Of a stretch of DNA of 42,374 nt, positions 4,493 to 42,374 are shown piece by piece. The notes beneath the pieces are model-generated. The model was not told where the DNA came from and did no database searches. It worked only from the letters and a program-made list of their open reading frames with translations. A program made the position numbers and the translations under genes. Source of the stretch: a virus; the IMG/VR virus record IMGVR_UViG_3300045988_090786. The stretch is one strand, 5' to 3'. The first letter of the stretch is position 1; each line of letters opens with the position of its first letter.

Positions 4493-4509
4493 ATAAATGC
4501 ACCTCATTT

Positions 4510-6381: not shown

Positions 6382-6396
6382 AATTCATTCCTCCTG

Positions 6397-7404: not shown

Positions 7405-7406
7405 TT

Positions 7407-19664: not shown

Positions 19665-19666
19665 TA

Positions 19667-23946: not shown

Positions 23947-26276
23947 TGCATACCCGCCCCCCTGTCATAAATATTACCAATATCACGTTCCGGCAGTACC
24001 TTTCTGATTTCTGATGCCGCCGCTCTGCCGATAGTCTGCGGATCGGCGTTATTGCCGTAGACATTGATGGTTACCGGCGCATTAACCGTATTCCTTGCGC
24101 TGCGGGAATCCGCAAAGCTGCTCGTCCCCGCAAGATTGCTAATCGTCCCCGTCCATTCGCCCCACTTTTGCTTTACTGCATTCCAGCCGTTTTCAAGTAC
24201 CCTGCCTGTATTTGCTGCTCTTTCCAACAAAGACGGACTCCCGGACGGCGTTACATCCGGTTCCTGTGGCGGCGGGGGATTATTCCGTGCCCATTCGTCC
24301 GCTTCCTGTTGTATGATCGCTTTCGCGTCAGCACGTTCCGAGTCCCAGCGGTCATGTAATTGCTCGGCAGTAACGCCTTCACTGTTAGCCGTATATCCAT
24401 TACGGACGTTATAGATTGCGTCAATCAATGCTTTTTGCGATTCAGCGGACATATTGATGGCACCTGCTCCGCCCATTGCCTGTATTGCCCGCTCGATGAT
24501 ATTCGTCCCGCCGCCATGCTGCACGGCAACTGACCAGACGGCTTCACGCACACCTCGAGATTGTTTTTCAATATTTAGCCCCGTACTATTCAGGATCTGC
24601 GCAACTTGCGGAGCATAATGCGTTTTTGCAATATACTGTCGCTGCGCTTCCCGGAACCCTTCGGGATCTTCACTGGCAATATCGCGCCATTCCTGATCAA
24701 AGTCTGCAGAGCCGACAGCTCCCGCATTTGATAAACGGTTATACCACTCGGTATTGATGCCGGACAAGTGCTGCAGGAAATCTGGTATATTATCTGGGAT
24801 AATCTGCCAGCTGCCATACGCTCCACCGGAACCCCCTGTGGTACCCGGTGCGCCCTCGTATTTTGACGATAGCGCGCCCAGACGCTTGTCGGACAAGTCG
24901 ACACCGCCAGAGAACATATTACCGATGAGAGCTTTTGCTCCGGCAAAATCACCCGTCAATAATTTACCGATGATATTCGCGAATTTTCCGATGCCGGAAA
25001 TCATCTTTGCAATAGTAATAACAATTTGCTTAAGGACCTTTTTAAATGACGTCCAAGCGCGAGTTTTACTTGTAATGCCGTCACTGATTTTGAAGAATTT
25101 TAGAATTCCGTCAATCAATGACGATATGCCATTCACCAATGACGTGACGCCCTGTCCGAGAGAATCGAACGCTTCGGAAAACGCATTAACAGTTTCTGTA
25201 TCGACGATATACGTCCATAATTCAGATAGTTTTTCAAAAAATTCCTCGCCGAGATATTCTGCTATATCGTAGATAGCTTTCGCCATCCGCTCAAACGCAT
25301 CAACGAATGCCTGCAGCCTCCCCGAATGTTCAACCCAGTGGAAAAATCGACTGACATAATCCACCATGACTGACCATGCTTTATTGCATAACTCTAAAAC
25401 ACGATTCAGCTTTTCCCACTGCTCGCCGAACAGACTTTTCTTGCCGTCCATGTAGGCGAAATAATCGTCTAAGAGCAGCAGCACTCCGCCGATGGCCATG
25501 GCCATAGCACCGATCGGTCCCGCAAGAAACGCAGCAATAGCAGTACCGAGGGCGAGAAACGCCACTCTGCCGTTATGCGGTAGCCGTTTCCAGAATTCGT
25601 TGATACGCTTACCGATGCCGGATAGAACCCGCCAGACGGCGAATGCGATATTTCGCACGAATCCGAAACCGGTCGCGATCGTTCGGGTAATGCGGGGCAA
25701 ATTAGTGATGATGTAATCGTTGATGGTTTTTAGCGTTTTTTTCGCATCACCCAGAGGTTTCGCAAGGTCTTTGACAATATAGTAAGCGACCCACTGCATA
25801 CCGGCTGCGATTTCCTGTTTTAACCGCGTGAATTCAAATGCCAGTTCCTGCACTTGATTCATGGCGGCCTTATAGCCGCCGCCTGCAGTCATTGCCGCAC
25901 TGTCGGACAATAGCTGGCGATACTGCTCGCGGAGCTTCGGATTAATCTGTACTTCATTAGCCGATTTTCCGAGAGCGTCCAACGCCATCTTCATTTGTTT
26001 TGCCTGACCGGCAGAAACGAACATCGTCCGTCCCAACGTTTCATACGCCATTTCCTGATCGCCCATGGACTTTACGAGTGATACTCCGGACGCCACAATG
26101 CCACTAATCGCCGCCATTACAAGTGCGCTGGCTTTCGCCAGTTTCGGAGCCAGCGATTCCATCCCGCCGACCATTTGATGAACAGAATTAACCGCTTTCT
26201 GTAACTCCGCAACCGACCGCGCGTCGACATCAGTACCCAGTTTCACCAGATACTCTTCAATGTAGTTTGCCGCCAC
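23943..26276 (-). CDS. Tail tape measure protein
   Basis: 777 aa with long alpha-helical/coiled regions and Gly-rich segments; follows the chaperone/frameshift region; GTG start overlapping the stop of the frameshift extension. Confidence 0.85.
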   Translation of the reverse strand: MAANYIEEYLVKLGTDVDARSVAELQKAVNSVHQMVGGMESLAPKLAKASALVMAAISGIVASGVSLVKSMGDQEMAYETLGRTMFVSAGQAKQMKMALDALGKSANEVQINPKLREQYRQLLSDSAAMTAGGGYKAAMNQVQELAFEFTRLKQEIAAGMQWVAYYIVKDLAKPLGDAKKTLKTINDYIITNLPRITRTIATGFGFVRNIAFAVWRVLSGIGKRINEFWKRLPHNGRVAFLALGTAIAAFLAGPIGAMAMAIGGVLLLLDDYFAYMDGKKSLFGEQWEKLNRVLELCNKAWSVMVDYVSRFFHWVEHSGRLQAFVDAFERMAKAIYDIAEYLGEEFFEKLSELWTYIVDTETVNAFSEAFDSLGQGVTSLVNGISSLIDGILKFFKISDGITSKTRAWTSFKKVLKQIVITIAKMISGIGKFANIIGKLLTGDFAGAKALIGNMFSGGVDLSDKRLGALSSKYEGAPGTTGGSGGAYGSWQIIPDNIPDFLQHLSGINTEWYNRLSNAGAVGSADFDQEWRDIASEDPEGFREAQRQYIAKTHYAPQVAQILNSTGLNIEKQSRGVREAVWSVAVQHGGGTNIIERAIQAMGGAGAINMSAESQKALIDAIYNVRNGYTANSEGVTAEQLHDRWDSERADAKAIIQQEADEWARNNPPPPQEPDVTPSGSPSLLERAANTGRVLENGWNAVKQKWGEWTGTISNLAGTSSFADSRSARNTVNAPVTINVYGNNADPQTIGRAAASEIRKVLPERDIGNIYDRGAGMQ

Positions 26277-26529
26277 TATGCATCACCACCATTCATCATT
26301 TCCGCATACTCCTGCGCCCTGCGCTTGTTTTCTGCCTGTAGGATAATCATTTCATGAGCATCCAACAGATCATCCAGTGTATAGGTACCATCAAATACTT
26401 CTTTCTGCTGCCACATACCCTGCATAACAGGCAAGTAAGCAAAAGCGTTAATATTTACCGGCTCTGCGACGGCGTAACCTGCTGAATCCCTGACAACAGG
26501 GAAGTCAAGCCGTCTTCGCCGAAAAAACC
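26276..26529 (-). other. Programmed -1 ribosomal frameshift extension of the tail assembly chaperone (G/GT-like); slippery site T_TTT_TTC at 26529..26521
   Basis: Heptamer UUUUUUC in the zero frame at the GFF codons of the chaperone; the -1 frame is open from 26536 to the TAG at 26278..26276 (about 83 codons), ending exactly at the TMP start. Confidence 0.6.
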
Positions 26530-26919
26530 GGATAAATTAAATACCAGTGCCTGCGCTGTAAGAACGAATACAGCCACGGCTTCTTTTTCAAGCCCGATGA
26601 CTGCAAAATTCCCAGATGTATCAAGTACCGGCGTAACACCTGCAGGAAGAATTTCTTCACAGGCACGCAAAGCCTCAGTCTGCAGCTTTCCGAATTCTCC
26701 CTCACTCATAGCAATACTTGACACAATATCATCCGTATTGACCAGCTTTGACATATCAGAAATATCTGCAGGATTCCCCGCGTGAATCTGCAGAATGGAC
26801 GGCAGAAAACGCGACATGACTGTATAGAGAATATAGCTGCCGGTGCGTGCGTCAAATTTATTAATTCGAAATTTACGCTTCTTTCCGGCAACCGTGAGTT
26901 CAATATCTTTGTAATTCAT
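26455..26919 (-). CDS. Tail assembly chaperone (gpG-like)
   Basis: 154-aa acidic protein between the tube and tape measure genes. Confidence 0.6.
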   Translation of the reverse strand: MNYKDIELTVAGKKRKFRINKFDARTGSYILYTVMSRFLPSILQIHAGNPADISDMSKLVNTDDIVSSIAMSEGEFGKLQTEALRACEEILPAGVTPVLDTSGNFAVIGLEKEAVAVFVLTAQALVFNLSGFFGEDGLTSLLSGIQQVTPSQSR

Positions 26920-26927
26920 AGTTCACC

Positions 26928-27368
26928 TCACGCCCGATTCAGCCGCTGAATATCGCCGAAAAGCAGCACCCAGCTGACATTCTGTCCCTGAGATTCGAAC
27001 GGTTCATCCGGTTCTTTCTGAAATGCGCCGTAAGAGCAGGAAATCGTCTTGCTCATTTTCGGGGCGCGGATTGTCAAGCTGATCTGTGCCCATTCATCCG
27101 TGGACGCCGACCACAGATAATTAAACAGCCCCTGTAGCCAGTTATGCAGCGGAGATGTCTGCTGGGCATTGATAGATACAGTGCCATTGTTCCCTGCAAT
27201 CTTGCTGGTCATTACAGAGCCGTCGGCAGCAATATTCTGCTGGGAGCGTTCCGTCGATTTGCTGACAGAAAAATTCCCGATACCCTCGCCGTTAACCGAA
27301 AACTGTCCGTAGGACGGATGCGAAATAACGGCGGTAACATCGGTAAAAGAATAAGTTGAATATCTCAT
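26928..27368 (-). CDS. Tail tube protein (contractile tail)
   Basis: 146 aa immediately downstream of the sheath gene. Confidence 0.55.
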   Translation of the reverse strand: MRYSTYSFTDVTAVISHPSYGQFSVNGEGIGNFSVSKSTERSQQNIAADGSVMTSKIAGNNGTVSINAQQTSPLHNWLQGLFNYLWSASTDEWAQISLTIRAPKMSKTISCSYGAFQKEPDEPFESQGQNVSWVLLFGDIQRLNRA

Positions 27369-27382
27369 ACATTAGCCTCCTC

Positions 27383-28525
27383 TTAGCGGTTGACGTCAAC
27401 CTGCACGACAACGGAATGAATAGCCCCGGCGAGCTTCAGTGCGATGTAGATCGGCGGTGCGATACGGTTATCACGGTCGGACTGGGACTGCTTATCAATC
27501 GGTTCCGACTGAATTAGATATCCGTTCGGCAGCGTATCACCGGCTGTGAGTTCAAGCACATCATTACCATTCCAGACGCCGGACGCCAAGAATCCGATCT
27601 TGTTGTACTCTTGGCAAACATCTTCCAATGCCCTGTGCAAGATCGTCATTCCGGCTTCTGTCTGCGGCACTTTCGCATTCTGTGTCAACCGATCCATGAT
27701 AGCCAGCTGGCAATCATTTTTGAATTTATCAAGGAAAATAATCTCATCAAAGAATGAACCGTCGGCCATAACGCCCTCTTCTAACATATTGTAATAAGTA
27801 CCGCGGTTCACATAGACATTACCATTTGCTCCCTTGATTTTCGTAACGGAATTAGACGGGAAAACAGAAGTTGCATTTTCTGTTTCAATGCCGGAAAGCG
27901 TCTTGAATTTTAACGTGAACGCAGAGTTAATCGTACCGGTCATAAAAGCCATAGCATTTCCGATAGCCGCAGCCACAGCGTCGGAATGCTTTGTCGAAAA
28001 CAGACCAAAGCAACGGCGATACAGTTTATTTTTTGCTTTTACAAAAATACTGTTATCCGTAGCAGCAGCGTCATTTTCGGCATTGCCGGAGGTGTACGCA
28101 TAGACTGTATCCGGCGTACAAGAATTGGTATACTCGAGATTCGCCAAGTGCTGTTCCGGCGTCTGTTCTTCACAGACAATACCAACATACCATTCATAGT
28201 TAGCTTCACGGCACGCCTTGAGTGCCTGTACGGCAGTTTCCGTTACAGACTTCACTGTGGCGATACAGCCGACCATGAATTTATCAGGTTTTTTATTCTG
28301 CCCCATAAGCAGAGCAGCGGCTTTATACAGGCGGTCGGTGAGTTTGAACCCATCCTTCAGCATTTCATCCAGAGATGAATATTCGCGGACGCGTTCTGCT
28401 GCCGGAATAATATCGGTCTTGCCAATCAGGCAGCATACATTGAATCCTTTTCTGACAGCAGATCGCTGAGAAAGATTAACAATAATCTTGACAACGCTTG
28501 TCAGGTCTAACGGTTTAAGCGGCAT
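27383..28525 (-). CDS. Tail sheath protein (short PBSX XkdK / DUF3383-type)
   Basis: 380 aa; AAAGGAGG SD; order sheath-tube-chaperone-TMP. Confidence 0.6.
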   Translation of the reverse strand: MPLKPLDLTSVVKIIVNLSQRSAVRKGFNVCCLIGKTDIIPAAERVREYSSLDEMLKDGFKLTDRLYKAAALLMGQNKKPDKFMVGCIATVKSVTETAVQALKACREANYEWYVGIVCEEQTPEQHLANLEYTNSCTPDTVYAYTSGNAENDAAATDNSIFVKAKNKLYRRCFGLFSTKHSDAVAAAIGNAMAFMTGTINSAFTLKFKTLSGIETENATSVFPSNSVTKIKGANGNVYVNRGTYYNMLEEGVMADGSFFDEIIFLDKFKNDCQLAIMDRLTQNAKVPQTEAGMTILHRALEDVCQEYNKIGFLASGVWNGNDVLELTAGDTLPNGYLIQSEPIDKQSQSDRDNRIAPPIYIALKLAGAIHSVVVQVDVNR

Positions 28526-28545
28526 ATTAGCCTCCTTTTTAATAA

Positions 28546-29115
28546 TCAGGGAACGTTAACACTCCCTGTAAAATCATCTTGATTACCAGAGCTTGGCACG
28601 GAATCGTGCGGGACTGTAAGTGTGACGTGTTCAATAGCTCCAACGTTTTCCGTGTTAACGTAAAGTTCGTTGTAGCGTAACGTCATATCAGACCGTTCCC
28701 ACCATTGTCCGTTAAATAACTCCGGAGAACGTACGATAGCAGGATTCGTGGGAACCAGACACACGTTCTTACTCTCGAGAGTTCTGCGTGTCTTCTCCCA
28801 AAGGACACCCGCACGCACCCGATCCAGCCATTCATGCCCGTCCGTGCCATAGCACGTCAGCAGTATATCCCAGACCCGTGTTCCGACGTGATCACGATAT
28901 ACGGTGCCGTTCTCGGTATGATATACCGGAGAACGGTCATTACCGTAACTGTCGTCGGCCTCATGCAGGTATAAAAACAAAACGGTATCCGTGATTGCAA
29001 ATCCCGGGGCTCCGTTCGTCGGGTATGATACCCTCACGGTGGAGCCGTTCACCGGCTGCTGCAAAATATCGCAGATAGCTGTTCGGAGCAAAGACTGCAG
29101 AGCTTTAATTTTCAT
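28546..29115 (-). CDS. Head-tail joining / tail completion protein
   Basis: Position in the connector gene string between the capsid and sheath genes. Confidence 0.35.
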   Translation of the reverse strand: MKIKALQSLLRTAICDILQQPVNGSTVRVSYPTNGAPGFAITDTVLFLYLHEADDSYGNDRSPVYHTENGTVYRDHVGTRVWDILLTCYGTDGHEWLDRVRAGVLWEKTRRTLESKNVCLVPTNPAIVRSPELFNGQWWERSDMTLRYNELYVNTENVGAIEHVTLTVPHDSVPSSGNQDDFTGSVNVP

Positions 29116-29473
29116 TTGTCCCGTTCCTCCCGAGCATAATTCCGATCATCTTCGTATAGCCGGAATCCTGCCAATTTTCAAGATGCATAATTTTATAAGT
29201 ATTGCCCGCATACCGTAGGCGCGGTGGCGGGCTGGCGGTTAAATCAAGGTCTATCGGCTTGCGTGTCCAGAATGTGATTGAGCCGGATATCCGGTCGGCT
29301 TCCGGAAGCATCTCCAGATCGTCTTTGCCCGTAGCCCTCACGACACCGCTGACCGTTTCCGGCGCAGCTTGTGATACGACATACTCGCCGTCCTGCCACT
29401 CGCCCTGATTTTTAACAATCTGGAACGTAGTGACGAAATCCGGATCATCAAGCAGAAACGAAATATCCAGCAT
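29105..29473 (-). CDS. Head-tail joining protein
   Basis: 122-aa ORF in the connector string. Confidence 0.35.
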   Translation of the reverse strand: MLDISFLLDDPDFVTTFQIVKNQGEWQDGEYVVSQAAPETVSGVVRATGKDDLEMLPEADRISGSITFWTRKPIDLDLTASPPPRLRYAGNTYKIMHLENWQDSGYTKMIGIMLGRNGTNEN

Positions 29474-29477
29474 ACAA

Positions 29478-30038
29478 TCAATCCTTTCTGACTACATAAG
29501 TGATAGCCTCCTGCATGGCACCGGTATCGATGAGCGGGCGGCTTGAACCTTTCAGCTCAATCGTTCGCGGACTGTTCGGTGCCCATCCATTACGCGGATC
29601 GGTAAACCATTTCTTGGCGTACGATGCCGCCAGATTACCCGCACTCCGCAGACCTCGGTCACTCTTAGTCTGCAGATATTGTTTAACGCCGGTATTCATC
29701 GCCCGGGCAATAACGGCTTTATTAGCCGCGATGGCAGGTTCAAGGACAGGACGCGGCGGCGAAGCCCAGAGCGGCGACCCGTGAGATTGCAAATACAACT
29801 CATGAGCCTCGCTATACTTCATTCCACGCTCCACATCCTTATCCATTTCCTGCCGCATGGCTTTTCTGCGGATGCCGTGGGTATGCAGGTAGAGCAGTTC
29901 AGAGCTGGTTACCGATTCGCCGTCACGTGCCGTTCTGTCAGATGGTATACCGACTAATACGCCGATTTTTTCCAGTTCTTTCATGCGGGCTGCCAAGTCA
30001 AAATCGGCGCGTTGCTTCTTTACTACAGTCAAACCCAT
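29478..30038 (-). CDS. Head-tail connector / head closure protein
   Basis: 186-aa ORF in the connector string. Confidence 0.35.
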   Translation of the reverse strand: MGLTVVKKQRADFDLAARMKELEKIGVLVGIPSDRTARDGESVTSSELLYLHTHGIRRKAMRQEMDKDVERGMKYSEAHELYLQSHGSPLWASPPRPVLEPAIAANKAVIARAMNTGVKQYLQTKSDRGLRSAGNLAASYAKKWFTDPRNGWAPNSPRTIELKGSSRPLIDTGAMQEAITYVVRKD

Positions 30039-30050
30039 ATCATTACCAGA

Positions 30051-30509
30051 TTACCAGATTGTCATACCGCCCATGGCGGCAACCTTTGCCAGCTGCACAA
30101 ACTGCTGCCCGTATACAGTCTGAGAAAATGTCCCCCAACCTGCAGATTCACTCGCAACCGAGCCGAAATCATATCCGACGGACATATCCGCAACAGATTT
30201 ACTCGTAGCAATACCGCGGGATAATCCGGCATTGATAATCTGCTGCGTGCTGGCACCTTCAGGTGTCGACGATTGCAGGTATAGCGTGAGAAAATGGGCT
30301 ATATATAATCCCATGCCCATCTCCCACAAGTCATTCCAGCGGTCATACTGCAGGCAGTTCATAGCCATCTTGATCCATGCTTTCCTGACGACTTCCGACA
30401 CGTCTTTAAACTGCGGATACATCGTCAGAAAATCGTCCATTGTATATTCGGGATTATTATCACTGCTCCGGATATTCGACGCAGCAGCGATAATCCCGTA
30501 TATATTCAT
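30051..30509 (-). CDS. Head-tail connector protein (DUF4054-like)
   Basis: 152-aa ORF in the usual DUF4054 position after the capsid gene. Confidence 0.35.
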   Translation of the reverse strand: MNIYGIIAAASNIRSSDNNPEYTMDDFLTMYPQFKDVSEVVRKAWIKMAMNCLQYDRWNDLWEMGMGLYIAHFLTLYLQSSTPEGASTQQIINAGLSRGIATSKSVADMSVGYDFGSVASESAGWGTFSQTVYGQQFVQLAKVAAMGGMTIW

Positions 30510-30811
30510 CAGTCACCTCTGGCCGCTTTGACGGCTTCAAGAAGTTCAGCTTTTGTGGACTTATCAGACAATTCCAGTCCGAGTTTCGTGCCCATTTCGA
30601 TGAGTTCCGCTTTCGTCATATCGTCCAGCGGATCAGTATCGGCAGGTTTGTTTTCCGGGATTGTAATAATCCCGTCCTGCATCGCCCAGTCAAACATCGG
30701 ATCGGCTTTAATCCAATCCGGGGCATCAACCAAATCCATCTCACGGGCGGTAAAAATCGCCCCGGTTTCCAGATTGCGGAAACCTACACGTTTATGCGCA
30801 AAAATAACCAT
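30509..30811 (-). CDS. Small protein with C-terminal HeH/SAP-like (Rho N-terminal-like) motif
   Basis: MTKAELIEMGTKLGLELSDKSTKAELLEAV helix-extended-helix motif. Confidence 0.4.
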   Translation of the reverse strand: MVIFAHKRVGFRNLETGAIFTAREMDLVDAPDWIKADPMFDWAMQDGIITIPENKPADTDPLDDMTKAELIEMGTKLGLELSDKSTKAELLEAVKAARGD

Positions 30812-30825
30812 AATTACCTCCCGGA

Positions 30826-31827
30826 TTAAATGCCGTCACGATAAACAAACGGTTCTGTGTAGTGGACTTTAACCTGACCGACAGCGGATACATACAAGCT
30901 GTCATAGGATGCATTAGCAACTACCGGCTGTGTCATTGCACGGGTGAGCGGAACCGGAACATCCATACCGACGAAGCGTTCTTCATTGACATAGCAGATC
31001 ATGCGGTCTTTCTGGCCAACGCCTGCTTTTTCGCACCAGCGGCATTCGCCGATAAACAGGTCGACGCCCTTATTCTTGGCAATGTTATTCTGCTTGAGAT
31101 ATTCAAGAATGGAGATTGCACCGTTCACGCCGGCGATGGAAACCATAGTAGTTACCAGATACCCATACTGTGTCGGCGGAATCAGAATATGGTTCGGAAT
31201 AGCATTCTGGTCGTACCCAGAAGCAGCCCAACCCGCCATAATAGCCTCGTTGATATCCGTGAGGATTTCAAGCGGCGTTTTCTTCTTCCAATCAGTAGCG
31301 GACGCAGCACCTGTAGCAACAGAAACCGGTGTTACTTTAGACTGGTTCACCAGCCCTTCGGTACCGTAATCTGCATTGCCGATATAAGTATTGCTGTCCA
31401 TGTACTTGTCGTAATCAAGACGGATACCGGTGTTATAAATCTGTTCGATAGAGCGTCCGGTTACTGCGCCACGCTGCATATCCACAAATTTAACGCCCAT
31501 GGTAATTTCATAAGGCAACACCTTAAATACGTCTTTACCGACGTTCGCCTGAATTCTGCGGATTGTGTTCTGGATGCCGCCGGTTTCGGAGTTACCGCCG
31601 ACCGCAGCATAGTCGACATTCATCGCGCTTGTGGATTCTACCCATCCGCCGCCGGACTGAATACTAATATCACGGGGATATGTAGTGCTTGTCAACGGTT
31701 CGCGCAGTTTCGGATCAATTTTCTCGAGTTCAGAAACGAGAAAAGACAGTCCACCGGAAATCGCGGAGCTGTCAAAAGTCGGTACGGCATTTCCGTACAT
31801 AGATGGCATAGTGATTTTTTTACCCAT
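30826..31827 (-). CDS. Major capsid protein (HK97 fold, lambda gpE-like)
   Basis: 333 aa; follows the decoration-like and scaffold genes; natural-looking composition, whereas the equally long antisense ORF is Cys/His/Arg-rich. Confidence 0.65.
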   Translation of the reverse strand: MGKKITMPSMYGNAVPTFDSSAISGGLSFLVSELEKIDPKLREPLTSTTYPRDISIQSGGGWVESTSAMNVDYAAVGGNSETGGIQNTIRRIQANVGKDVFKVLPYEITMGVKFVDMQRGAVTGRSIEQIYNTGIRLDYDKYMDSNTYIGNADYGTEGLVNQSKVTPVSVATGAASATDWKKKTPLEILTDINEAIMAGWAASGYDQNAIPNHILIPPTQYGYLVTTMVSIAGVNGAISILEYLKQNNIAKNKGVDLFIGECRWCEKAGVGQKDRMICYVNEERFVGMDVPVPLTRAMTQPVVANASYDSLYVSAVGQVKVHYTEPFVYRDGI

Positions 31828-31846
31828 AATTATTATTTACCTCCTG

Positions 31847-32353
31847 TTAAACGCCCTGACGGGTCACAATAACAACTTCCGCAACGTTATTAGCGTCTTT
31901 GCCGGTCGCCCACTTTGCATTAGTGAGTTGTACCGTATTAGTTGCATCTGCAGCTGCTGCAAATTCTCCCATTTTGTGACCGCTTGCGGCTGCTTTGTAT
32001 ACATGCACGGCACCGCCCACAGTCGGATTTCCTGCAACACATTCAACCATGACCGCACCGCGTTCGAGAATATCGCAGTTTTCATTGGCTGCATAATATC
32101 CGTGGTTCTGATCAGGATAAACGAGCGCGGACTTTATACGGCGCATAGCAACGCCTGCAAATGCAGCAGCGGTGCCTGCCCCTGCACCCAGTAGCGTGCA
32201 GGTTCCGTCAGCACCGATTTCAACGGCAGCACCGAACGGGATATTCGCAGCACCTTTCTTTACCGGTCTGGTACGAGAAATTTCATCCCCCTGACGGCTA
32301 ATCTGTCCGGGATATCCGAAATTAAGAGTTTTTCCAATAACTGTTCCTGGCAT
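31847..32353 (-). CDS. Capsid decoration / accessory structural protein (Gly/Ala-rich, DUF2190-like position)
   Basis: 168-aa Gly/Ala-rich protein immediately upstream of the capsid gene; AAAGGAAGG SD. Confidence 0.4.
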   Translation of the reverse strand: MPGTVIGKTLNFGYPGQISRQGDEISRTRPVKKGAANIPFGAAVEIGADGTCTLLGAGAGTAAAFAGVAMRRIKSALVYPDQNHGYYAANENCDILERGAVMVECVAGNPTVGGAVHVYKAAASGHKMGEFAAAADATNTVQLTNAKWATGKDANNVAEVVIVTRQGV

Positions 32354-32355
32354 AA

Positions 32356-33537
32356 TTATTTACCTTCCTTTCTGTAATGAGGATTCATTTTTCTGCAGGC
32401 TTCCCCAAAATCGGATGCGTGAGCCATGCCATGGTCTGCAGCTTTTGCATGCAGCATTTTAGCGAAAACTGAATTATCCTTTTTCTGCGGTATCAGTGCG
32501 CCACGAAGTCCGTCAACGACTTTTTGCCGCTGATCATCCGGCAGTGCTGCGATAGTCGGTTTAATCGCCCGAAGAATAGAACGAGCTACCGCGCGGTCAA
32601 CAGTCGGTTTTTCGTCTTCATCGTCCTCGTCTTCGGTTTTAATATTTTCCGGAGCTTCGGTGACGGACTCCTCGTTATCAATCGGATCTTCATCTTCAGA
32701 TAATTCTTTCTCAAGATTGTCCAGATCATCCGGTTTTTCGTCGTTCATGCGCGCTTCCAGATCGGCGATGCGCTTCATGAGCGGTGCGAAAGCTGCATCA
32801 AGTGCTTTTTTTACTTCTTCTTCCGGTACGTCTTCATCTTTCACTTCCGGCTTTACTTCCGGTTTGGTCTCCGGCTTTTCTTCAGGTTCATTCACCGCGT
32901 CCATAGCTTTTTTCAAATCTTCCGGCGTGGTATCTTCATCTTTCGCAAAGACCGCCAGCATTCGACTTACAATATTACCTTTTTTTGTCATGTTCTTACC
33001 TCCATTTTTAATTACTGGTTTTTCATCCCTGATGGCTACCCGACTACCGGCTCGACCGTTATTCACGACCGCTATATGATTGCAGACAATATTACATTGT
33101 TCCAATCCGCCGTCGCATTCCCGATAATCGCACAGATACCCTGCAGATATTTCACGCTTTCCTGCTTCAATCTCGGATATAAGCGTAGCATCATATATAA
33201 TTAAATCGCCGATAATCAAATCGGCATTTTCACCGGCACCCCTGCGGACATTCGCACAGGTACCGCGGATATAACCGGTCGCATTTCCCGGTTCTACAAA
33301 TTCAGCAGGATGATCGTCCGTTACCGGTTTTCCCTCAAAGCTCGCTAAAGTAGACTTCTTAAAGACTTCTTCCGGTTTTCGGTACACTTTTACAATTGAG
33401 CTATCGCTCATTCCGACCTCGCTGCCCAGGTAGTCCTGCTCACCCGTCCGAGCAAGCGGAACATTATGACAGATTAAAAAGCCGTCCGTCGTCCGTGTCA
33501 TATTAGGCGAAAAGCGGCTTCCGTAATAAGCCTGCAT
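32356..33537 (-). CDS. Prohead protease/scaffold-like protein (DUF2213-like N-terminus, acidic coiled-coil C-terminus)
   Basis: N-terminal MQAYYGSRFSPNMTRTTDGFLICHNVPLARTGEQDY pattern; long Glu/Asp/Lys/Pro-rich low-complexity centre; position between MuF and capsid. Confidence 0.5.
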   Translation of the reverse strand: MQAYYGSRFSPNMTRTTDGFLICHNVPLARTGEQDYLGSEVGMSDSSIVKVYRKPEEVFKKSTLASFEGKPVTDDHPAEFVEPGNATGYIRGTCANVRRGAGENADLIIGDLIIYDATLISEIEAGKREISAGYLCDYRECDGGLEQCNIVCNHIAVVNNGRAGSRVAIRDEKPVIKNGGKNMTKKGNIVSRMLAVFAKDEDTTPEDLKKAMDAVNEPEEKPETKPEVKPEVKDEDVPEEEVKKALDAAFAPLMKRIADLEARMNDEKPDDLDNLEKELSEDEDPIDNEESVTEAPENIKTEDEDDEDEKPTVDRAVARSILRAIKPTIAALPDDQRQKVVDGLRGALIPQKKDNSVFAKMLHAKAADHGMAHASDFGEACRKMNPHYRKEGK

Positions 33538-34388
33538 TATATCAGACCTCCTACCATTTTAATAACTGCCGATTTGTTCATACGTGTAATTTTTCCGTTT
33601 TTATGCACCGGTACCGTGTCCGGTATTTGTTCCGGCACAATAACCGGCTCCGGCGTACATCGGCAATTAAACGTGCCGCCGGGCGGATATCGACCATAGG
33701 GCTTCTGATATCCGGGAAATAACGCCTCCGGATTCGGCGGATCATCCCAAGAGCACAGGACGCCATCCATTTTCTTATGCGCCGAACGGGAGCGTTCATC
33801 CCGCACGCTGCGCCAGAAATACCAGTTATGCCCCAGATCCTGACAGTCCGCCTGAATCATAGCCGTGTGATACTTCGCCATTTCCGTGCGGGCAATCAGT
33901 TTTGACCGCGCCCGCGTTCGGTTCGGAAACAGTTTTAATATTTCCGCTTCGATATCTTCAGGTCTTCGTCCTTTTGCTGCCTGCTCAGCAGCGTAATCGC
34001 TAACCTGCTCCGCTGTAGATAAAGGCAGTGTTTGAATTAGCTCGGCGTTTTCGCGTATCATTTCCTGCACGCGCTTGCCTCGCTCACCGGCCATGGATTT
34101 CATCAAGCGCATATACATTTCACGCGTTTTAGAGTTATAGCGTGCAGCCTCACGCCAGTTTCTGCCGACATCAGCAAACAAGCCGGTAATCATTTTACCC
34201 GCCAGAGCTTCGGAAAATGCCCGAAATTCTTCGGTTTTTGACCAAGCGTCCATCGCCCGCTTAAATGCGGCATATGAGCTGCAGTTGCGGCATGTAAAAA
34301 GCGCCTGCTTTAACAGACGCTCCAATGCCCGCTGATACGCCAGCTCAATCCGCCGTCTCGGCTCCCATAGTGGCATATATAACCTCAC
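33537..34388 (-). CDS. Head morphogenesis protein, MuF / SPP1 gp7 family
   Basis: IARTEMAKYHT, WYFWRSVRDERSRSAH and PPGGTFNCRCTPEPV motifs of the Phage_Mu_F domain. Confidence 0.9.
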   Translation of the reverse strand: MRLYMPLWEPRRRIELAYQRALERLLKQALFTCRNCSSYAAFKRAMDAWSKTEEFRAFSEALAGKMITGLFADVGRNWREAARYNSKTREMYMRLMKSMAGERGKRVQEMIRENAELIQTLPLSTAEQVSDYAAEQAAKGRRPEDIEAEILKLFPNRTRARSKLIARTEMAKYHTAMIQADCQDLGHNWYFWRSVRDERSRSAHKKMDGVLCSWDDPPNPEALFPGYQKPYGRYPPGGTFNCRCTPEPVIVPEQIPDTVPVHKNGKITRMNKSAVIKMVGGLI

Positions 34389-34480
34389 AATTGATTTATC
34401 ATCATAAGAAATATATAATCAAGACAGAAGAGATCAAGGTTGTTAGAAGAGTATGTCTTTCTAACGTAAAGTCATGAGAG

Positions 34481-36379
34481 TTAATCGTCTTCATGACTTC
34501 CTTGATCTTTTTTGTCATATACAAAATATCCGGTAACAAGAAAATTCAGTTTATCATTGAATATTTCAGGAGAAATGATAGCTTGATATTTACCTTTAGT
34601 AATCACAAAACGGCCACGCTTATTTATTTTCAACGTTCCATTTTCTATGGTGTCGGATAAATGCGAAACAAGTTCATCGACATCTTCGTTTTCTTCCTTG
34701 CGACGTTTAATAATATGCTTCAGCCCGACTGCATCATTTCCCCAAATTAACGTAATGTCATCAATATCAGAACGAATAAATGCATTTTTGATATGCCCAT
34801 TTTTACAATCAAGTAATTTTTGGACGGCAGCATCTCCGTGAGGAGCTTTATGCTCTTGCCCTAATAGATCAAGGCTTTCCTGCTTAAAGCCAATACTATT
34901 ACCGCCAGTAAATTTACCGTCATCACTGCGCGGGTGTTTGCTTTCTTCGAAATCGGCGTCCTGCGTTTCCATCGAAGACATGCCGGGGATATTCATTTCA
35001 CCGGCGGCTTCCGGCTGATCAGACGCTGCTTCGATCTGTTTATCGGTAATGTTCGTCCACATGCCGGTCAGCTTGCTTGATCCCTGCAGTTCTCGGAGCG
35101 CAGTCTTTTCTGATACCAGCCCCGCCGTATACGCCTGCACGACAGCTGCCGTTTGCTGGCTGCCAAGGCTCTGTTTTTCATCATTACTCGGGCGGCGTAC
35201 CGGATTAAATATATAATCCAGATCGTCAGGCACAGCCCCCAATGCTGACATACAGACAATGGGCAGCAGCTTATCAAGCACCGGACGTAACTGCGATTCC
35301 TGCGACTGCTCAATGGTGTCATAGTAATTATCCATATCCGCATCGCCGGTAGAGTTCATGCCCGCAGGCGACCGACCAAATAACTTTGTGACAGGAATCC
35401 CGCACGCTCCGGAAACGTCCATCATGAAGCGGTCATAGACTTCTCCAAGCCCAGAAAATGTATACTGGTGCGATTCGTAGGAATCATCTTTGCCGAGAAT
35501 CTGAATGCCGTTATTATTCAGCATCATATTCAATCCCTCGAGCGTATTATATAAAGCCTGCTGCGACTTATCGCCGCCGTACGCCAGGAGCTGCTCCATC
35601 CCGTCAATTTTCATAACGCGGATGTTGGCCATGAACGTTAACAGGGCAATATTCCAAGAAACATTATCCCGCTTTTTCAATTCCGAAAAAACGTGTTCCA
35701 TCTCGGACGTTCCCCAATAGTTCTCGGCCAATTTCTCGAGATACGGCATTTCACGGCCGGAGAACCGGCAGACGCGGCTGTTGTGCAGTCGGATAACGCC
35801 CTGCCCTTCCGGCAGCGTAACCTCATAATATTCCGGCATACCGAAATCGGGATCGGTTATATCGGTAATCAAATCGGCACTCGGCATTATACCAGACCAC
35901 CGATCCATAATGAGCAAGCCTTTAAACGCCCCCGGCATCACACGATCCAGATCCAGCGGCTCATCCATGCGATCATCCTCACCGTCAATCATAATGATTC
36001 CGGCAGCACCGCCATACAGCCGTCCCCAGTACAAACCGTTTAATATTTTCGAGTGCAGGCGCGTCTGACGGATAATTTTTGATATTTTCTGTATCTGGTC
36101 TGGATTGATATCAGACTGGAAATCATAGCCATTCTTCATCATATCCTGCGGGATAGTGTTAATAATTTTCTGGACGACCCAGTGCGACCGGTACAGAGAG
36201 TTCAACACCTGCCAGTTTTGAGTAAACCTCGTTAGCGGATATTCTGTCGCCTCGAGCAGGTTAGGCATACCTGCGCCGCTGCGGGCAAGCGGATTCACAA
36301 ACTCATCGAGTGTGAGTTTCCGCCCCACGTTCCGCCCTGCGTCGTTCGTTAAGCGGCGAGCTTTACTTTTCTTCTTCAT
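34481..36379 (-). CDS. Portal protein (SPP1 gp6-like) with C-terminal extension of about 150 aa carrying an EESKHPRSDDGKF motif
   Basis: 632 aa directly after TerL and before MuF; GGAGG SD; the C-terminal region after residue 480 is extra relative to typical portals of about 500 aa. Confidence 0.75.
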   Translation of the reverse strand: MKKKSKARRLTNDAGRNVGRKLTLDEFVNPLARSGAGMPNLLEATEYPLTRFTQNWQVLNSLYRSHWVVQKIINTIPQDMMKNGYDFQSDINPDQIQKISKIIRQTRLHSKILNGLYWGRLYGGAAGIIMIDGEDDRMDEPLDLDRVMPGAFKGLLIMDRWSGIMPSADLITDITDPDFGMPEYYEVTLPEGQGVIRLHNSRVCRFSGREMPYLEKLAENYWGTSEMEHVFSELKKRDNVSWNIALLTFMANIRVMKIDGMEQLLAYGGDKSQQALYNTLEGLNMMLNNNGIQILGKDDSYESHQYTFSGLGEVYDRFMMDVSGACGIPVTKLFGRSPAGMNSTGDADMDNYYDTIEQSQESQLRPVLDKLLPIVCMSALGAVPDDLDYIFNPVRRPSNDEKQSLGSQQTAAVVQAYTAGLVSEKTALRELQGSSKLTGMWTNITDKQIEAASDQPEAAGEMNIPGMSSMETQDADFEESKHPRSDDGKFTGGNSIGFKQESLDLLGQEHKAPHGDAAVQKLLDCKNGHIKNAFIRSDIDDITLIWGNDAVGLKHIIKRRKEENEDVDELVSHLSDTIENGTLKINKRGRFVITKGKYQAIISPEIFNDKLNFLVTGYFVYDKKDQGSHEDD

Positions 36380-37646
36380 AAGCAGACAGCCTCCAGCTTT
36401 TAATCATAGTTTTTACACAATAACGCATGGCATCGCATGCATGATCAGATTGTTTTACAGGCTTTTCCTGCCCGTGAGTTAATGCGGCTTTTTCGTCCCA
36501 GACGTAAGACGCCAATTCATCCCGCGTATTTTGACACCGCTCATGTATATGCAGGTGTAGTGTCCGAAACAGCATGGCGACCATACGGATTCCGTCATTG
36601 ACGTCATTATCCGCGTCCTTAACACGATACCCCGCCTGTCGCAGTAGCACCTTGAAGCTGGCGGCGGACGGGTCAATAATCACATAATCGGGATCTTCGT
36701 CGCCGACAAATTGCTTAAAGTCTTCCAGATACTCGGCATCGGATTTCTGCCGCCCCTCTTTGCGGGAATTGTAATAATATTCTTTGTCTAACCAGAGGTC
36801 GGTGCCATCATCGTAAATATCTAAAAAGACCATGGGATTAATCGTCCCATAGTCTATAGAGATATATCTCCGGCTCCGACCGCGCAACTGCTCCGGCCGC
36901 GTATTGTCATTATACAGATTCGCATCGGTAAACATGTCATATATAACGCCCTCGGCAATAACCCACAGCCCAAGAATCATCCGCTTGTACCAGATCCCCT
37001 GATACAATCTGCGATAACGCTCTTTAACCTCTTCGGTAAGTGATAAGTTATCATCAAGCGTAAAGTGCAAGTGTAGGATTCGTTTTTCTTCAGCTTTATC
37101 AATGTAATCCGTTTTAATGTAATGGTACGGTGATTCCGGATTACAGTTCATCCAGATTTTAGAATTTTTAACAGAGCAGCGGCCAATCATCTGTTCAACG
37201 AACGACCGTGGAAACAATGCAGCTTCATCAGCCAGCGCTCCGGCGGCAGTCAACCCTTGAATCACATCCTGACTGGCTTCATTGCTTGCACCGAAACAGT
37301 AATATGTATTACTGCCGATCGTTATATAATTCTCTGATCGATTATATGTATACGGCACCTGCATAGAGTGCAGGATCTGAAACATCGGCCGAAGCAGATT
37401 ACGTTTTAATGCGCCGGACGACCGCCCCGCCACGATAAACGCCTGCCCCTCAAACTGACTGAGTGACCAAAGCAGAAACGCATTCACCATAGCAATTGTC
37501 TTTCCGGAACGAATAGACCCGTCAGCGATAACCAAATCATAATCAGCATATGGCGAATTTCCCTGCATCCACCATGAGAGAAGTTGTTTTTGCTTTCGGG
37601 AAAACGGCAGAAATTGAAACGATGCACCCCTATCAATCACCGCCAT
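36363..37646 (-). CDS. terL: Terminase large subunit
   Basis: Walker A DGSIRSGKT; C-terminal nuclease-like region; GGAGGTG SD before ATG 37646; overlaps the TerS end. Confidence 0.9.
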   Translation of the reverse strand: MAVIDRGASFQFLPFSRKQKQLLSWWMQGNSPYADYDLVIADGSIRSGKTIAMVNAFLLWSLSQFEGQAFIVAGRSSGALKRNLLRPMFQILHSMQVPYTYNRSENYITIGSNTYYCFGASNEASQDVIQGLTAAGALADEAALFPRSFVEQMIGRCSVKNSKIWMNCNPESPYHYIKTDYIDKAEEKRILHLHFTLDDNLSLTEEVKERYRRLYQGIWYKRMILGLWVIAEGVIYDMFTDANLYNDNTRPEQLRGRSRRYISIDYGTINPMVFLDIYDDGTDLWLDKEYYYNSRKEGRQKSDAEYLEDFKQFVGDEDPDYVIIDPSAASFKVLLRQAGYRVKDADNDVNDGIRMVAMLFRTLHLHIHERCQNTRDELASYVWDEKAALTHGQEKPVKQSDHACDAMRYCVKTMIKSWRLSAYEEEK

Positions 37647-38319
37647 TATTCCACACCTCCGACGTTCCAGCCTGTAACGCATTTATATAGCCCGCCAGAT
37701 CGGGCTTGCCATCTGCAGACCCCAGACGTTTAATATTCTGTATTTCTGCCCGCATCTTATCAATGCGAGTAATACGTTCCTCATTCTCCGGAGATTCCGG
37801 AAGCATATCCTCATATATTCTTAGCATATGTGATAGTGTAGCCATTGCTCTGGCTTGTGTATTCAAAAACGACTGCCATTTATCAAAGACCAATACTTTC
37901 TCGGTATGCGTTGATACGGTCACTACCCGCTTACCGGTCGTATCCGTACTTACAGTTTTATCCGTAGTAGTGACTTCCGTATCGCCTTGTCGGATAAATT
38001 CAATCATCGCCTGCCACGACGTCATGATCGCGACGAATTTCAAGCTGATCAACATCCACTGTATATCAAGCGGAGATACTCCCCGGAGTTCAGCTGCGGC
38101 CTTGAGTGTTTCCGGCGTAAGATACCGGCTGTATAAGTTATGCCGCAGACCGCGTGCGCTTATTACCGATTTCTTATTCGAATTACTGCGCCATTTCCGA
38201 AACCAACCGTAGACGGTATTTTTATTTAACCCATATTTGCTGGCAATTTTGGCGGCAGCGACACCGCGCTTGAAATCGTTGTAAGCAGCATTATATATCT
38301 CCTCATTCCGCCGCGGCAT
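37633..38319 (-). CDS. terS: Terminase small subunit (HTH N-terminus)
   Basis: YGLNKNTVYGWFRKW HTH near the N-terminus; GGAGGTGAGGTG SD before ATG 38319; immediately upstream of TerL. Confidence 0.75.
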   Translation of the reverse strand: MPRRNEEIYNAAYNDFKRGVAAAKIASKYGLNKNTVYGWFRKWRSNSNKKSVISARGLRHNLYSRYLTPETLKAAAELRGVSPLDIQWMLISLKFVAIMTSWQAMIEFIRQGDTEVTTTDKTVSTDTTGKRVVTVSTHTEKVLVFDKWQSFLNTQARAMATLSHMLRIYEDMLPESPENEERITRIDKMRAEIQNIKRLGSADGKPDLAGYINALQAGTSEVWNNGGD

Positions 38320-38336
38320 CACCTCACCTCCGCATA

Positions 38337-38363
38337 GAAAAAGCACCCCGATCGAGGGTGCTT
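38337..38363 (-). terminator. Terminator-like hairpin immediately 5' of terS
   Basis: Minus strand AAGCACCC-UCGAUCG-GGGUGCUU followed by UUUCUAUGCG, then the terS SD. Confidence 0.45.
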
Positions 38364-41577: not shown

Positions 41578-42018
41578 TTACCCCCTCGGATTGATTTTCT
41601 TTCCGGCGGCCGCCTGCTTGAGCCACTCATTAAACTGCAAACATTTAGCCATATCCCGTTCATACGGCTCGCCCGGTTTCTTCCCTGCACGGCAGAAATA
41701 TTTAAACATATTTCCTTTGAGCCAGCCGCGAAATTCTTCCGACGTGAGAATATCCTGCAACATTTCCACAGGCTGCAGCCTTGCGCCGTCAATCTGATAA
41801 TGCTTGGCGGTAGCCGCTGAACCGTCGGAAGATTCGTCACAGGATTGATTATTATTGGACTGGGTTTTCTGCTTTGATAGTTCACAGTCTATACCTGCTG
41901 CCATTTTCCGCAAATACCGGAGTAGCACAAACGCACTAATTCTCTCATCGTAAGTATCATGATACTCAATATATTTAATCAAAGCGTCTAACCGATTTAA
42001 TACTATTTGCATATCCAT
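41578..42018 (-). CDS. DUF3310-like phage protein
   Basis: AKHYQIDGARLQPVEMLQD...FRGWLKGNMFKYFCRAGKKPGEPYERDMAKCLQFNEWL matches the DUF3310 HY...GN.FKY..R...K...D..KA..Y pattern; CAGGAGG SD. Confidence 0.5.
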   Translation of the reverse strand: MDMQIVLNRLDALIKYIEYHDTYDERISAFVLLRYLRKMAAGIDCELSKQKTQSNNNQSCDESSDGSAATAKHYQIDGARLQPVEMLQDILTSEEFRGWLKGNMFKYFCRAGKKPGEPYERDMAKCLQFNEWLKQAAAGKKINPRG

Positions 42019-42374
42019 TATTCCGCCTCCTGGTCTAAAATCTGCATTTCAGCCAAGTCTGCCGCGACTTTATATATTTTTGCATGTTTAGTGTTCGTAC
42101 CATGTGTTTCTTCGACCTTTTCTCTAAATTCTTCTATTGTCCCACTAAAACACCCGCATTTAACAGATATACCGCCGTCTTTATCCTTAAAAAACGTTGT
42201 GAAATCGGAGCGGCTGCCAATTCTGCCAATAAGCATACAATCTGCATTACCAGCCACCCATGCATCACCAGCCACCCATGCATTACCAGCCACCCATGCA
42301 TTACCAGTCACCCTTGCATTACCAGACACCCATGCATTACCAGTCACCTCTGCATTACCAGTCACCTCTGCATT
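42018..42374 (-). CDS. Hexapeptide-repeat protein, C-terminal part (continues from 1..256 across the circular junction); Cys-containing C-terminal domain
   Basis: Frame open at the window end; NAEVTG NAWVSG NARVTG NAWVAG NAWVAG DAWVAG units, then CMLIGRIGSRSDFTTFFKDKDGGISVKCGCFSGTIEEFREKVEETHG; TAATG overlap with the DUF3310 gene start. Confidence 0.7.
   Translation of the reverse strand, partial: NAEVTGNAEVTGNAWVSGNARVTGNAWVAGNAWVAGDAWVAGNADCMLIGRIGSRSDFTTFFKDKDGGISVKCGCFSGTIEEFREKVEETHGTNTKHAKIYKVAADLAEMQILDQEAE
42320..42374. repeat. 55-bp terminal direct repeat, identical to 1..55
   Basis: See the feature at 1..55. Confidence 0.9.

What the first reader, a model, noticed from the sequence alone, without database searches (positions are those of the whole stretch)
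42320..42374. Window is a complete circular phage genome: exact 55-bp end overlap, with one gene spanning the junction in frame
Positions 1-55 and 42320-42374 are identical. That is the k=55 overlap left by de Bruijn assemblers on circular contigs. Removing one copy joins the minus-strand ORF that runs off position 1 to the ORF that enters at 42374, in the same reading frame (55 mod 3 = 1 matches the partial codon at position 1). The result is one protein of about 185 aa. The genome is therefore about 42,319 bp and circular or circularly permuted; the coordinate origin falls inside a coding tandem repeat, so the true repeat number may be collapsed.
Basis: seen in the sequence. Interest (0 to 1): 0.7.

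Follow-up and report, generated by a model that had tools for sequence, protein, structure and literature searches.

The report
Complete circular phage genome, assembler overlap
The identical 55 bases at the two ends are an assembler artefact marking a complete, circular 42.3-kb temperate phage genome. This is ordinary, except that the cut falls at a repeat whose copy number (11 or 18 units) the assembly cannot settle.

Summary
Window 1-55 and 42320-42374 are identical, and 55 is the only prefix/suffix match longer than 1 base. Removing one copy gives a 42,319-bp circle and joins a minus-strand gene in frame: exactly 185 aa, with 11 hexapeptide (18-bp) units.

The join is real. An independent contig (k119_200199; 42,438 = 42,319+119 bp) reads straight through the junction with 1 mismatch in 8,432 bp. 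Its own break lies inside the window, at 15398-15516.

The window carries attP internally (17-bp core, 12835-12851). In integrated relatives, host DNA starts there, not at the window ends. The gene set is a full temperate myovirus-type set, probably from a Dialister host.

Another otherwise identical contig carries a 126-bp (7-unit) duplication. In it, the window's terminal 55-mer occurs twice and is one of only four branching vertices in a simulated k=55 graph. The window equals the path that skips that loop. A 42,500-bp contig that starts at the same base has exactly the length of the path that takes the loop once.

So the genome is 42,319 or 42,445 bp. The phenomenon is known and interest is low.

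The parts
1..55 (.). Left copy of the 55-bp terminal overlap. Its reverse complement is called V in this report.
   Evidence: Identical to 42320-42374. Unique in the circularised genome.
42320..42374 (.). Right copy of the 55-bp terminal overlap. It is redundant; remove one copy to get the 42,319-bp circle.
   Evidence: The junction reconstructed this way is contiguous in the independent contig L014.
1..256 (-). 5' part of the junction gene: ATG at 256-254, the N-terminal domain, and hexapeptide units 1-7 (the last one partial).
   Evidence: The same 85-aa partial product is called at the end of scaffold_246 (L015).
42018..42374 (-). 3' part of the junction gene: units 4-11, the C-terminal domain, and the stop codon at 42020-42018.
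   Evidence: PHROG 20532 matches residues 90-181 and phrog_7964 matches both halves.
1..112 (-). Left half of the coding 18-bp (GNAxVx) tandem array, units 1-7.
   Evidence: TRF. Unit table.
42234..42374 (-). Right half of the coding 18-bp tandem array, units 4-11. Units 4-7 are duplicated by the overlap.
   Evidence: TRF. Unit tables.
42312..42314 (-). Codon 4 of unit 7: AGG (Arg) in the window, TGG (Trp) in L014. It lies 5 nt from the overlap and is the SNP that distinguishes the two copies of the 126-bp duplication in L010.
12835..12851 (.). attP core, TTATAATAGCCATAATT (17 bp). This is the point where integrated relatives switch to host DNA on either side.
   Evidence: Homology to 8 integrase-side loci ends at 12851. 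Homology to 6 loci from the other prophage end stops at 12835.
11637..12758 (+). Tyrosine integrase with an arm-binding domain.
   Evidence: phrog_1. PF00589 and PF14657. The exact protein is found integrated in 360-590 kb contigs.
12725..12745 (+). Two TGGAAGCCA(A/C) motifs on the left arm of attP. Candidate arm-type integrase sites (inferred).
12923..12943 (+). Two TGGAAGCCAC motifs on the right arm of attP. Candidate arm-type integrase sites (inferred).
   Evidence: All 3 exact GGAAGCCAC matches in the window lie within about 110 bp of the core; 0.18 expected by chance. TRF row.
36363..38346 (-). Terminase small subunit (37633-38346) and large subunit (36363-37682).
   Evidence: phrog_509 and phrog_2. 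TerL is at most 55% identical to any GenBank phage.
19095..36379 (-). Virion module: portal, head morphogenesis protein, protease, major capsid protein, neck, sheath, tube, tape measure and baseplate.
   Evidence: PHROG hits.
1174..8333 (-). Replication and recombination module: primase/helicase, VRR-NUC nuclease, helicase, SSB, Sak4-like protein, DUF1351.
   Evidence: The same order continues across the junction in L002 and L003.

Best explanation
The window is one full turn of a circular assembly path through a temperate, contractile-tailed phage genome whose host is probably Dialister. It is written out with the assembler's k = 55 vertex at both ends. Deleting one copy gives a 42,319-bp genome and restores a single 185-aa gene. 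That gene encodes a YdcK-like beta-solenoid protein with 11 GNAxVx units, lying between the replication module and the DUF3310/methylase/terminase genes.

The cut is not arbitrary. The terminal 55-mer is the vertex at which a 126-bp (7-unit) loop joins the graph. The window is the cycle that skips that loop, and taking the loop once gives 18 units, 227 aa and 42,445 bp. The source sample therefore very probably contained the 18-unit allele, alone or mixed with the 11-unit one, and the array length in the window is a lower bound.

Shown here: the overlap, the in-frame join, read-through in an independent assembly, the internal attP, the full gene set, and the coincidence of the window end with the graph vertex. 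Inferred: the assembler identity and k, which allele(s) the sample held, the physical topology, and the host species.
For: The ends share an exact and unique 55-mer. The in-frame join gives 185 aa.

L014 (k119_200199, 42,438 bp = 42,319+119) carries the junction internally, with 1 mismatch in 8,432 bp. Its first 119 nt are window 15398-15516.

L010 (k127_126686, 42,572 bp = 42,445+127) equals the window with 0 mismatches over 3,518+4,797 nt, plus an exact 126-bp V-to-V insertion. V occurs twice there, preceded by C in one copy and T in the other.

The k=55 simulation shows that the window genome alone has no branching vertex. The 18-unit genome has four, and V is one of them. The zero-loop cycle from V to V is identical to the reverse complement of the window (42,374 nt). 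The one-loop cycle is 42,500 nt, which is the length of scaffold_246; that contig starts at window base 1 and is 100% identical over all 8,822 nt retrieved.

Other assemblies also fail in this array: L012, L013 and L016 end in it, and L004 has 100 N there.

attP is internal and host DNA begins at 12851/12835 in 14 loci from integrated relatives. The phage gene set is full, with no tRNA and no host genes. Homologues of the junction protein cover both halves, and gene order across the junction is conserved.
Against: No reads are available, so nothing directly shows molecules spanning the junction in the source sample. The assembler and its k are unknown; 55 is the metaSPAdes default maximum from my own knowledge, not a tool result. 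The right end of scaffold_246 and the right end of k119_200199 could not be retrieved, so their overlaps of 55 and 119 nt rest on length arithmetic. The exact 185-aa (Arg form) protein was not found as an intact gene in any other assembly (which also missed forms known to exist, so it is uninformative). The 18-unit graph used in the simulation was built from L010's array, not from the source sample.
Confidence: 0.92

Rival explanations
1. The genome is complete and circular, but the window under-counts the array. The phage in the source sample really has 18 units (227-aa protein, 42,445 bp), and the 11-unit form in the window is purely an assembly collapse of the 126-bp duplication.
For: The window is exactly the zero-loop path of the k=55 graph of the 18-unit genome and ends on its branching vertex. 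L010 is identical apart from the loop. The two 11-unit versions seen (window with Arg, L014 with Trp) are exactly the two ways of collapsing the duplication, through its 60-nt and its 73-nt exact repeats.
Against: L014 was finished at k=119, longer than either exact repeat (60 and 73 nt), so an 11-unit allele probably does exist. A mixture of 11- and 18-unit genomes gives the same graph. Where the loop was well supported, an assembler took it (scaffold_246, 42,500 nt). Unit number varies naturally from about 4 to 25 among close relatives.
Confidence: 0.35
2. The 55-bp identity is a real direct terminal repeat of a linear virion genome with fixed ends at window 1 and 42374.
For: Identical ends are also what a short DTR would produce.
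Against: The length equals a default assembler k. The repeat lies in frame inside a coding tandem array. An independent assembly reads through the site and breaks elsewhere with a different overlap length (119 nt at window 15398-15516). The end coincides with a de Bruijn branching vertex.
Confidence: 0.02
3. The contig is not from a free circle. It comes from two prophage copies integrated in tandem, or from replication concatemers or permuted headful-packaged DNA. All of these also close the graph.
For: The phage is temperate and its exact integrase sits in many 360-590 kb host contigs. A tandem lysogen recreates an attP-like join. The terminase belongs to the Terminase_6N class alongside a gp7/Mu-F-like head protein, which suggests headful packaging.
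Against: Nothing in the sequence separates these forms. They all give the same 42.3-kb unit genome, so this rival concerns physical form only, not the finding. No contig with host flanks shares the window's exact tail-fibre allele: all 5 carriers are 20-50 kb.
Confidence: 0.25
4. The match between the ends is chance similarity between two halves of a tandem repeat, or between two paralogous genes, and the contig is an incomplete linear fragment.
For: Both ends are in an 18-bp array with 88-92% unit identity.
Against: All other registers have 5-10 mismatches against 0 for the true one. L014 shows the join at 99.99% identity. The gene set is complete and attP is internal. Gene order across the join is conserved in many contigs.
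Confidence: 0.01

Closest known systems
k-mer end overlap of circular contigs from de Bruijn assemblers (metaSPAdes k=55; MEGAHIT final k). This is the signal that completeness tools read as 'DTR/circular' (own knowledge).
   Same: There is an exact prefix/suffix identity of length k. Trimming one copy restores a continuous sequence. Different assemblies of the same genome show different k-length overlaps at different places: 55 here; 119 and 127 inferred for k119_200199 and k127_126686.
   Different: The origin here is not arbitrary. It sits on a branching vertex created by a 126-bp tandem duplication, so the circle hides an unresolved loop.
Temperate myoviruses of Firmicutes, such as Clostridioides phage phiCD418, Aeribacillus phage AP45 and Streptococcus phage EJ-1.
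   Same: They have a similar size (about 42-53 kb) and a related large terminase: 54-55% identity to phiCD418 and AP45, 48% to EJ-1. The window also has an integrase, a sheath/tube/baseplate module and a gp7-like head protein; the gene order of those phages was not compared.
   Different: There is no nucleotide-level match to any GenBank phage. The host flanks point to Dialister, a Negativicute. The phage is known only from metagenome contigs.
YdcK-type beta-solenoid proteins (PDB 2pig/2f9c; Pfam PF18836) and their phage homologues, such as S. thermophilus phage Sfi19 orf229, phiNJ2, Mannheimia phage 587AP2 and phiRM10 gp34.
   Same: The junction protein has an N-terminal sheet followed by GNAxVx hexapeptide coils. 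The best structural match is YdcK (prob 0.99). Homologues cover at least 80% of the query in 38 GenBank phage records. Homologues carry precomputed PF18836 hits.
   Different: The 11-unit protein scores below the Pfam thresholds (25.4 against 30 bits). It has an extra conserved Cys/His-containing C-terminal domain (phrog_20532). The function of the whole family is unknown. Repeat number is highly variable among near-identical phages.
True direct terminal repeats of linear phage genomes (T7-like; own knowledge).
   Same: Identical sequence at both contig ends.
   Different: Such repeats have fixed physical ends, are usually more than 100 bp and non-coding, and do not depend on the assembler's k. 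Here the site is read through by another assembly, and the overlap length equals a default k.

Membership tests
Assembler k-mer end overlap of a circular contig | Exact identity of contig prefix and suffix, with no longer imperfect extension. | tested here: met
   55/55 identical. The only prefix=suffix lengths are 1 and 55.
Assembler k-mer end overlap of a circular contig | Overlap length equals the k of the assembler used. | not testable with these tools
   The assembler of the window is not given. 55 is the metaSPAdes default maximum k (own knowledge). Sister contigs named k119 and k127 have lengths of 42,319+119 and 42,445+127.
Assembler k-mer end overlap of a circular contig | Trimming one copy gives a sequence that exists contiguously in independent data. 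| tested here: met
   L014 spans the join with 1 mismatch in 8,432 nt and no gap.
Assembler k-mer end overlap of a circular contig | Reads or read pairs from the source sample span the junction. | not testable with these tools
   No reads are available.
Complete temperate tailed phage genome (Caudoviricetes, contractile tail) | Terminase, portal, major capsid, sheath/tube/baseplate, lysis and replication genes are all present. | tested here: met
   PHROG and Pfam hits.
Complete temperate tailed phage genome (Caudoviricetes, contractile tail) | Integrase plus an attP whose core matches the prophage/host boundaries; no host DNA in the contig. | tested here: met
   The 17-bp core at 12835-12851 is defined by 14 loci from integrated relatives. 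Host genes start just outside it.
True direct terminal repeat of a linear virion genome | Fixed physical termini at the repeat, independent of the assembly. | tested here: not met
   An independent assembly reads through the site and breaks at window 15398-15516 instead.
YdcK beta-solenoid repeat family (Pfam PF18836) | Score at or above the Pfam gathering threshold. | tested here: not met
   25.4 bits against a cut-off of 30 for the 185-aa protein. Longer homologues do carry PF18836, and the fold search puts YdcK first at prob 0.99 but E 0.2. It works like a YdcK-type solenoid, but formal membership is unproven.
Bactofilin (Pfam PF04519) | Score at or above the Pfam gathering threshold. | tested here: not met
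   22.8 bits against a cut-off of 27.9.

The most novel reading that the evidence does not exclude
The 18-bp array in the beta-solenoid gene may be a fast-changing contingency locus. Genomes with 0-1 substitutions in more than 8 kb of flanking sequence carry 11 (Arg form), 11 (Trp form) or 18 units. The two short forms are the reciprocal products expected from unequal recombination within the 126-bp duplication. The source sample itself seems to hold more than one allele. If these are real molecules rather than assembly collapses, the phage varies the length of an early-expressed solenoid protein faster than it accumulates point mutations, possibly under selection from host defence or superinfection.
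Probability: 0.3. Interest if true: 0.4.

Novelty: new member of a known kind. Interest (0 to 1): 0.2.

Why it matters
In practice, the contig can be treated as a complete 42.3-kb phage genome. One copy of the 55-mer should be trimmed, the split gene annotated as one 185-aa protein, and the origin moved, for example to the terminase genes or attP.

The array should be flagged as unresolved, since the 42,445-bp, 227-aa form is equally compatible with the graph.

More generally, the case shows that the origin of a 'circular' short-read contig can mark a hidden graph branch. Here the position of the cut itself reveals a repeat-number polymorphism.

Biologically, the window is an undescribed but widespread temperate phage of a Dialister-like human oral/gut bacterium. 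Nothing about the terminal overlap itself is new.

Tried and rejected
- Looking up the window's own right-end partial product (118 aa) to identify the source contig: not on record.
- Exact 55-mer in IMG/VR: no match.
- Allele-diagnostic 66-nt pattern in JGI metagenomes: no match.
- Megablast of window 1-25000 against GenBank phages: no match.
- Integrase peptide patterns in the GTDB representative genomes: no relative found. The host was therefore inferred only from the LeuRS in the flank, which is 81-83% identical to several Dialister MAGs.
- Retrieving the right end of k119_200199 through the 493-aa tail fibre: the contig was folded into 'similar places not shown'.
- Exact look-up of the three protein forms (185 aa Arg, 185 aa Trp, 227 aa): none is in the collection, although two of them are called genes in L014 and L010, so the result is uninformative.
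- tRNA scan for a tRNA att site: none found.
- Pfam assignment of the junction protein: only sub-threshold hits.
- Foldseek against the PDB: only the N-terminal ~55-59 residues match YdcK, and there is no informative match for the C-terminal domain.
- A paper on Negativicutes prophages mentions Dialister only in passing.
- Rejected idea: that the array of this genome alone tangles a k=55 graph. Its longest exact internal repeat is 35 nt and the simulation shows no branching vertex.

Full report
OBSERVATION

Window 1-55 and 42320-42374 are identical. A script found that the only prefix=suffix lengths up to 2000 are 1 and 55.

Both ends lie in an 18-bp tandem array (TRF: 1-113 with 6.3 copies, 42243-42374 with 7.3 copies, 88-92% matches), so I asked whether repeat self-similarity could explain the match. 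It cannot. In the circularised sequence the 55-mer occurs once. The in-register alternatives at +/-18, 36, 54 and -72 nt differ at 5-10 positions. The longest exact internal repeat of the joined array is 35 nt.

Removing one copy gives 42,319 bp. On the minus strand, 256 nt (window 256->1) plus 357 nt (42374->42018) minus 55 nt equals 558 nt. This is one open frame of exactly 185 aa plus a stop, with 11 GNAxVx units.

IS THE JOIN REAL?

Three independent lines say yes.

(i) Protein family. More than 6,700 database proteins match the joined protein, and the best 120 cover 71-100% of it (97-100% for nearly all). Their lengths run from 137 to 299 aa, and within the sub-families lengths step by 6 aa, for example 137/143/149/155/161/167/179/185. 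PHROG 7964 matches both halves. Homologues covering at least 80% of the query occur in 38 GenBank phage records, including Sfi19 orf229, phiNJ2, SVep1, Mannheimia 587AP2 and phiRM10 gp34.

(ii) Gene order. In contigs of 69-590 kb the order is SSB - helicase - VRR-NUC - 979-aa primase - 143 aa - 57 aa - solenoid protein - DUF3310 - (methylase) - ParB-methylase - TerS - TerL - portal. This is exactly the window read on the minus strand across its ends.

(iii) The same genome assembled elsewhere. Contig k119_200199 (ENA ERZ27263245) is 42,438 bp, which is 42,319+119. It holds the junction internally. Its 8,432-nt locus L014 differs from the circularised window at one base, with no gap. Its first base is window 15516, and its first 119 nt equal window 15398-15516. 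Each assembly therefore bridges the other's break, which is the strongest evidence for closure obtainable without reads. That its last 119 nt repeat the first rests on the length arithmetic, because I could not retrieve that end.

COMPLETENESS AND ABSENCE OF HOST DNA

PHROG and Pfam searches assign a full temperate, contractile-tailed phage set:
- Replication: primase/helicase at 1174-4113, helicase, SSB and a Sak4-like protein.
- A plus-strand lysogeny block at 9741-12758: HTH repressor, ImmA-like protease, an Mrr-type nuclease and the integrase.
- Tail fibres and an amidase endolysin.
- Baseplate, tape measure, tube, sheath, neck, major capsid protein, protease, gp7-like head protein and portal.
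- TerL, TerS and two methyltransferases.
No tRNA was found.

The exact integrase protein occurs in 176 index blocks, many of them in 360-590 kb contigs. In all eight loci examined, homology to the window stops at window 12851. Host genes follow: an FAA-hydrolase and then LeuRS. At the other prophage end, in the same host contigs, homology runs from window 18966 down to 12835 and is followed by a class-I (Gln/Glu-type) tRNA synthetase.

The 17 bp shared by both ends, TTATAATAGCCATAATT (12835-12851), is therefore the att core. The window carries it once, flanked by both phage arms, so it is attP, the excised configuration. Host DNA begins at attP in integrated relatives, not at the window ends. 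The whole window is phage.

I therefore assign the host only as Dialister or a close relative.

WHY THE CUT IS WHERE IT IS

The array occupies about 0.45% of the genome, yet many assemblies break in it. L012, L013 and L016 end inside it. L004 has 100 N there. Scaffold_246 (42,500 bp) starts at exactly window base 1 and is 100% identical to the window over all 8,822 nt retrieved.

Contig k127_126686 (locus L010) is 42,572 bp, which is 42,445+127. It is identical to the window over 3,518+4,797 nt except for an exact 126-bp insertion that duplicates seven units, giving an 18-unit, 227-aa protein. In it the reverse complement of the window's terminal 55-mer, here called V, occurs twice. One copy is preceded by C and the other by T. 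V is followed after 5 nt by T (Trp) in the first copy and by A (Arg) in the second.

I simulated k=55 de Bruijn graphs.
- The window genome alone has no branching vertex.
- Any graph containing the 18-unit allele has exactly four, and V is one of them, with in-degree 2.
- The cycle from V to V that skips the loop is string-identical to the reverse complement of the window (42,374 nt).
- The cycle that takes the loop once is 42,500 nt, the length of scaffold_246.

All four contig lengths are thus explained by two genome lengths (42,319 and 42,445 bp) and three k values (55, 119, 127). A cut landing on one of four special vertices among about 42,000 positions by chance has a probability near 1e-4. 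So the source graph very probably had this branch, and the 18-unit allele was present in the sample.

Whether the 11-unit form is also a real molecule there is open. It probably exists in nature, because L014 was finished at k=119, which is longer than the 60- and 73-nt exact repeats of the duplication. However, the two 11-unit versions (window with Arg at unit 7, L014 with Trp) are exactly the two possible collapses of the 18-unit array. They are equally the two products expected from unequal recombination.

WHAT THE JUNCTION GENE IS

An AlphaFold model built from 47 sequences has mean pLDDT 80 and pTM 0.42. It shows an N-terminal beta-sheet (residues 4-39), an extended coil region over the repeats, and a C-terminal beta/alpha domain (127-184) containing invariant Cys140, Cys142 and His158.

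Foldseek places Salmonella YdcK (2pig, 2f9c) first, but only over 55-59 columns (prob 0.99, E 0.2). Pfam gives only sub-threshold hits: PF18836 at 25.4 against 30 bits, and bactofilin at 22.8 against 27.9 bits.

I regard it as a YdcK-like beta-solenoid protein of unknown function. Its solenoid length varies from about 4 to 25 units (143-269 aa) among phages that share an identical 146-aa downstream neighbour.

COMPARISON WITH WHAT IS KNOWN, AND VERDICT

An exact k-length end overlap is the standard signature of a circular path in de Bruijn assemblies (own knowledge). Every testable defining feature is met. The alternative, a physical DTR, fails because another assembly reads through the site.

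The phage has no nucleotide-level relative among GenBank phages. Its TerL is at most 55% identical to those of phiCD418 and AP45, and 48% identical to that of EJ-1. The same genome is nevertheless present in several public metagenome assemblies.

The finding is correct and useful for curation, but it is ordinary. The one non-trivial point is that the contig origin marks an unresolved 126-bp repeat loop. The genome is 42,319 or 42,445 bp, and the junction protein is 185 or 227 aa.

Noticed in passing
window 1-112 and 42234-42319; loci L005-L011 and L014: The number of GNAxVx units in the solenoid gene is very variable. Protein lengths of 143, 161, 173, 185, 215, 227, 245 and 269 aa occur among phages that share an identical 146-aa DUF3310 neighbour. 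Three genomes with 0-1 substitutions in about 8 kb differ only in the array (11 units with Arg, 11 with Trp, 18 units).
   Followed up: partly
window 12725-12745 and 12923-12943: Four TGGAAGCCA(C) motifs flank the att core, two on each arm. All three exact GGAAGCCAC matches in the window are here, against 0.18 expected. They are likely arm-type binding sites for the integrase, which has an Arm-DNA-bind_4 domain.
   Followed up: partly
window 12835-12851: The 17-bp att core, TTATAATAGCCATAATT, is not in a tRNA. The integration site lies in an intergenic region between an FAA-hydrolase/LeuRS cluster and a class-I (Gln/Glu-type) tRNA synthetase gene of a Dialister-like host.
   Followed up: yes
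window 10561-11619 (+): An Mrr_cat / NA-iREase1 restriction-endonuclease-like gene sits between the ImmA-like protease and the integrase. In relatives L024 and L025 the same slot holds an unrelated 218-aa gene with a faint PdaC hit. This looks like a variable cargo or defence slot in the lysogeny module.
   Followed up: no
window 39097-40500 (-) and 41103-41570 (-): There are two DNA methyltransferases near the packaging genes: a ParB_N-N6_N4_Mtase fusion (467 aa) and a 155-aa phrog_954 methylase. The ParB-methylase gene is split or truncated in several relatives (L005, L008, L011).
   Followed up: no
window 14397-19138 (-): The tail-fibre region is mosaic. The exact 324-aa and 493-aa fibre proteins occur only in 5-7 contigs, whereas the flanking endolysin/DUF7338 region and the integrase occur in hundreds. 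Relatives L027, L030 and L031 lack window 14397-15688 altogether.
   Followed up: no
window 9000-13000: GC content falls to 38-40% in the lysogeny/attP region, against 45-53% elsewhere. GC skew is negative throughout, in line with nearly all genes being on the minus strand.
   Followed up: no
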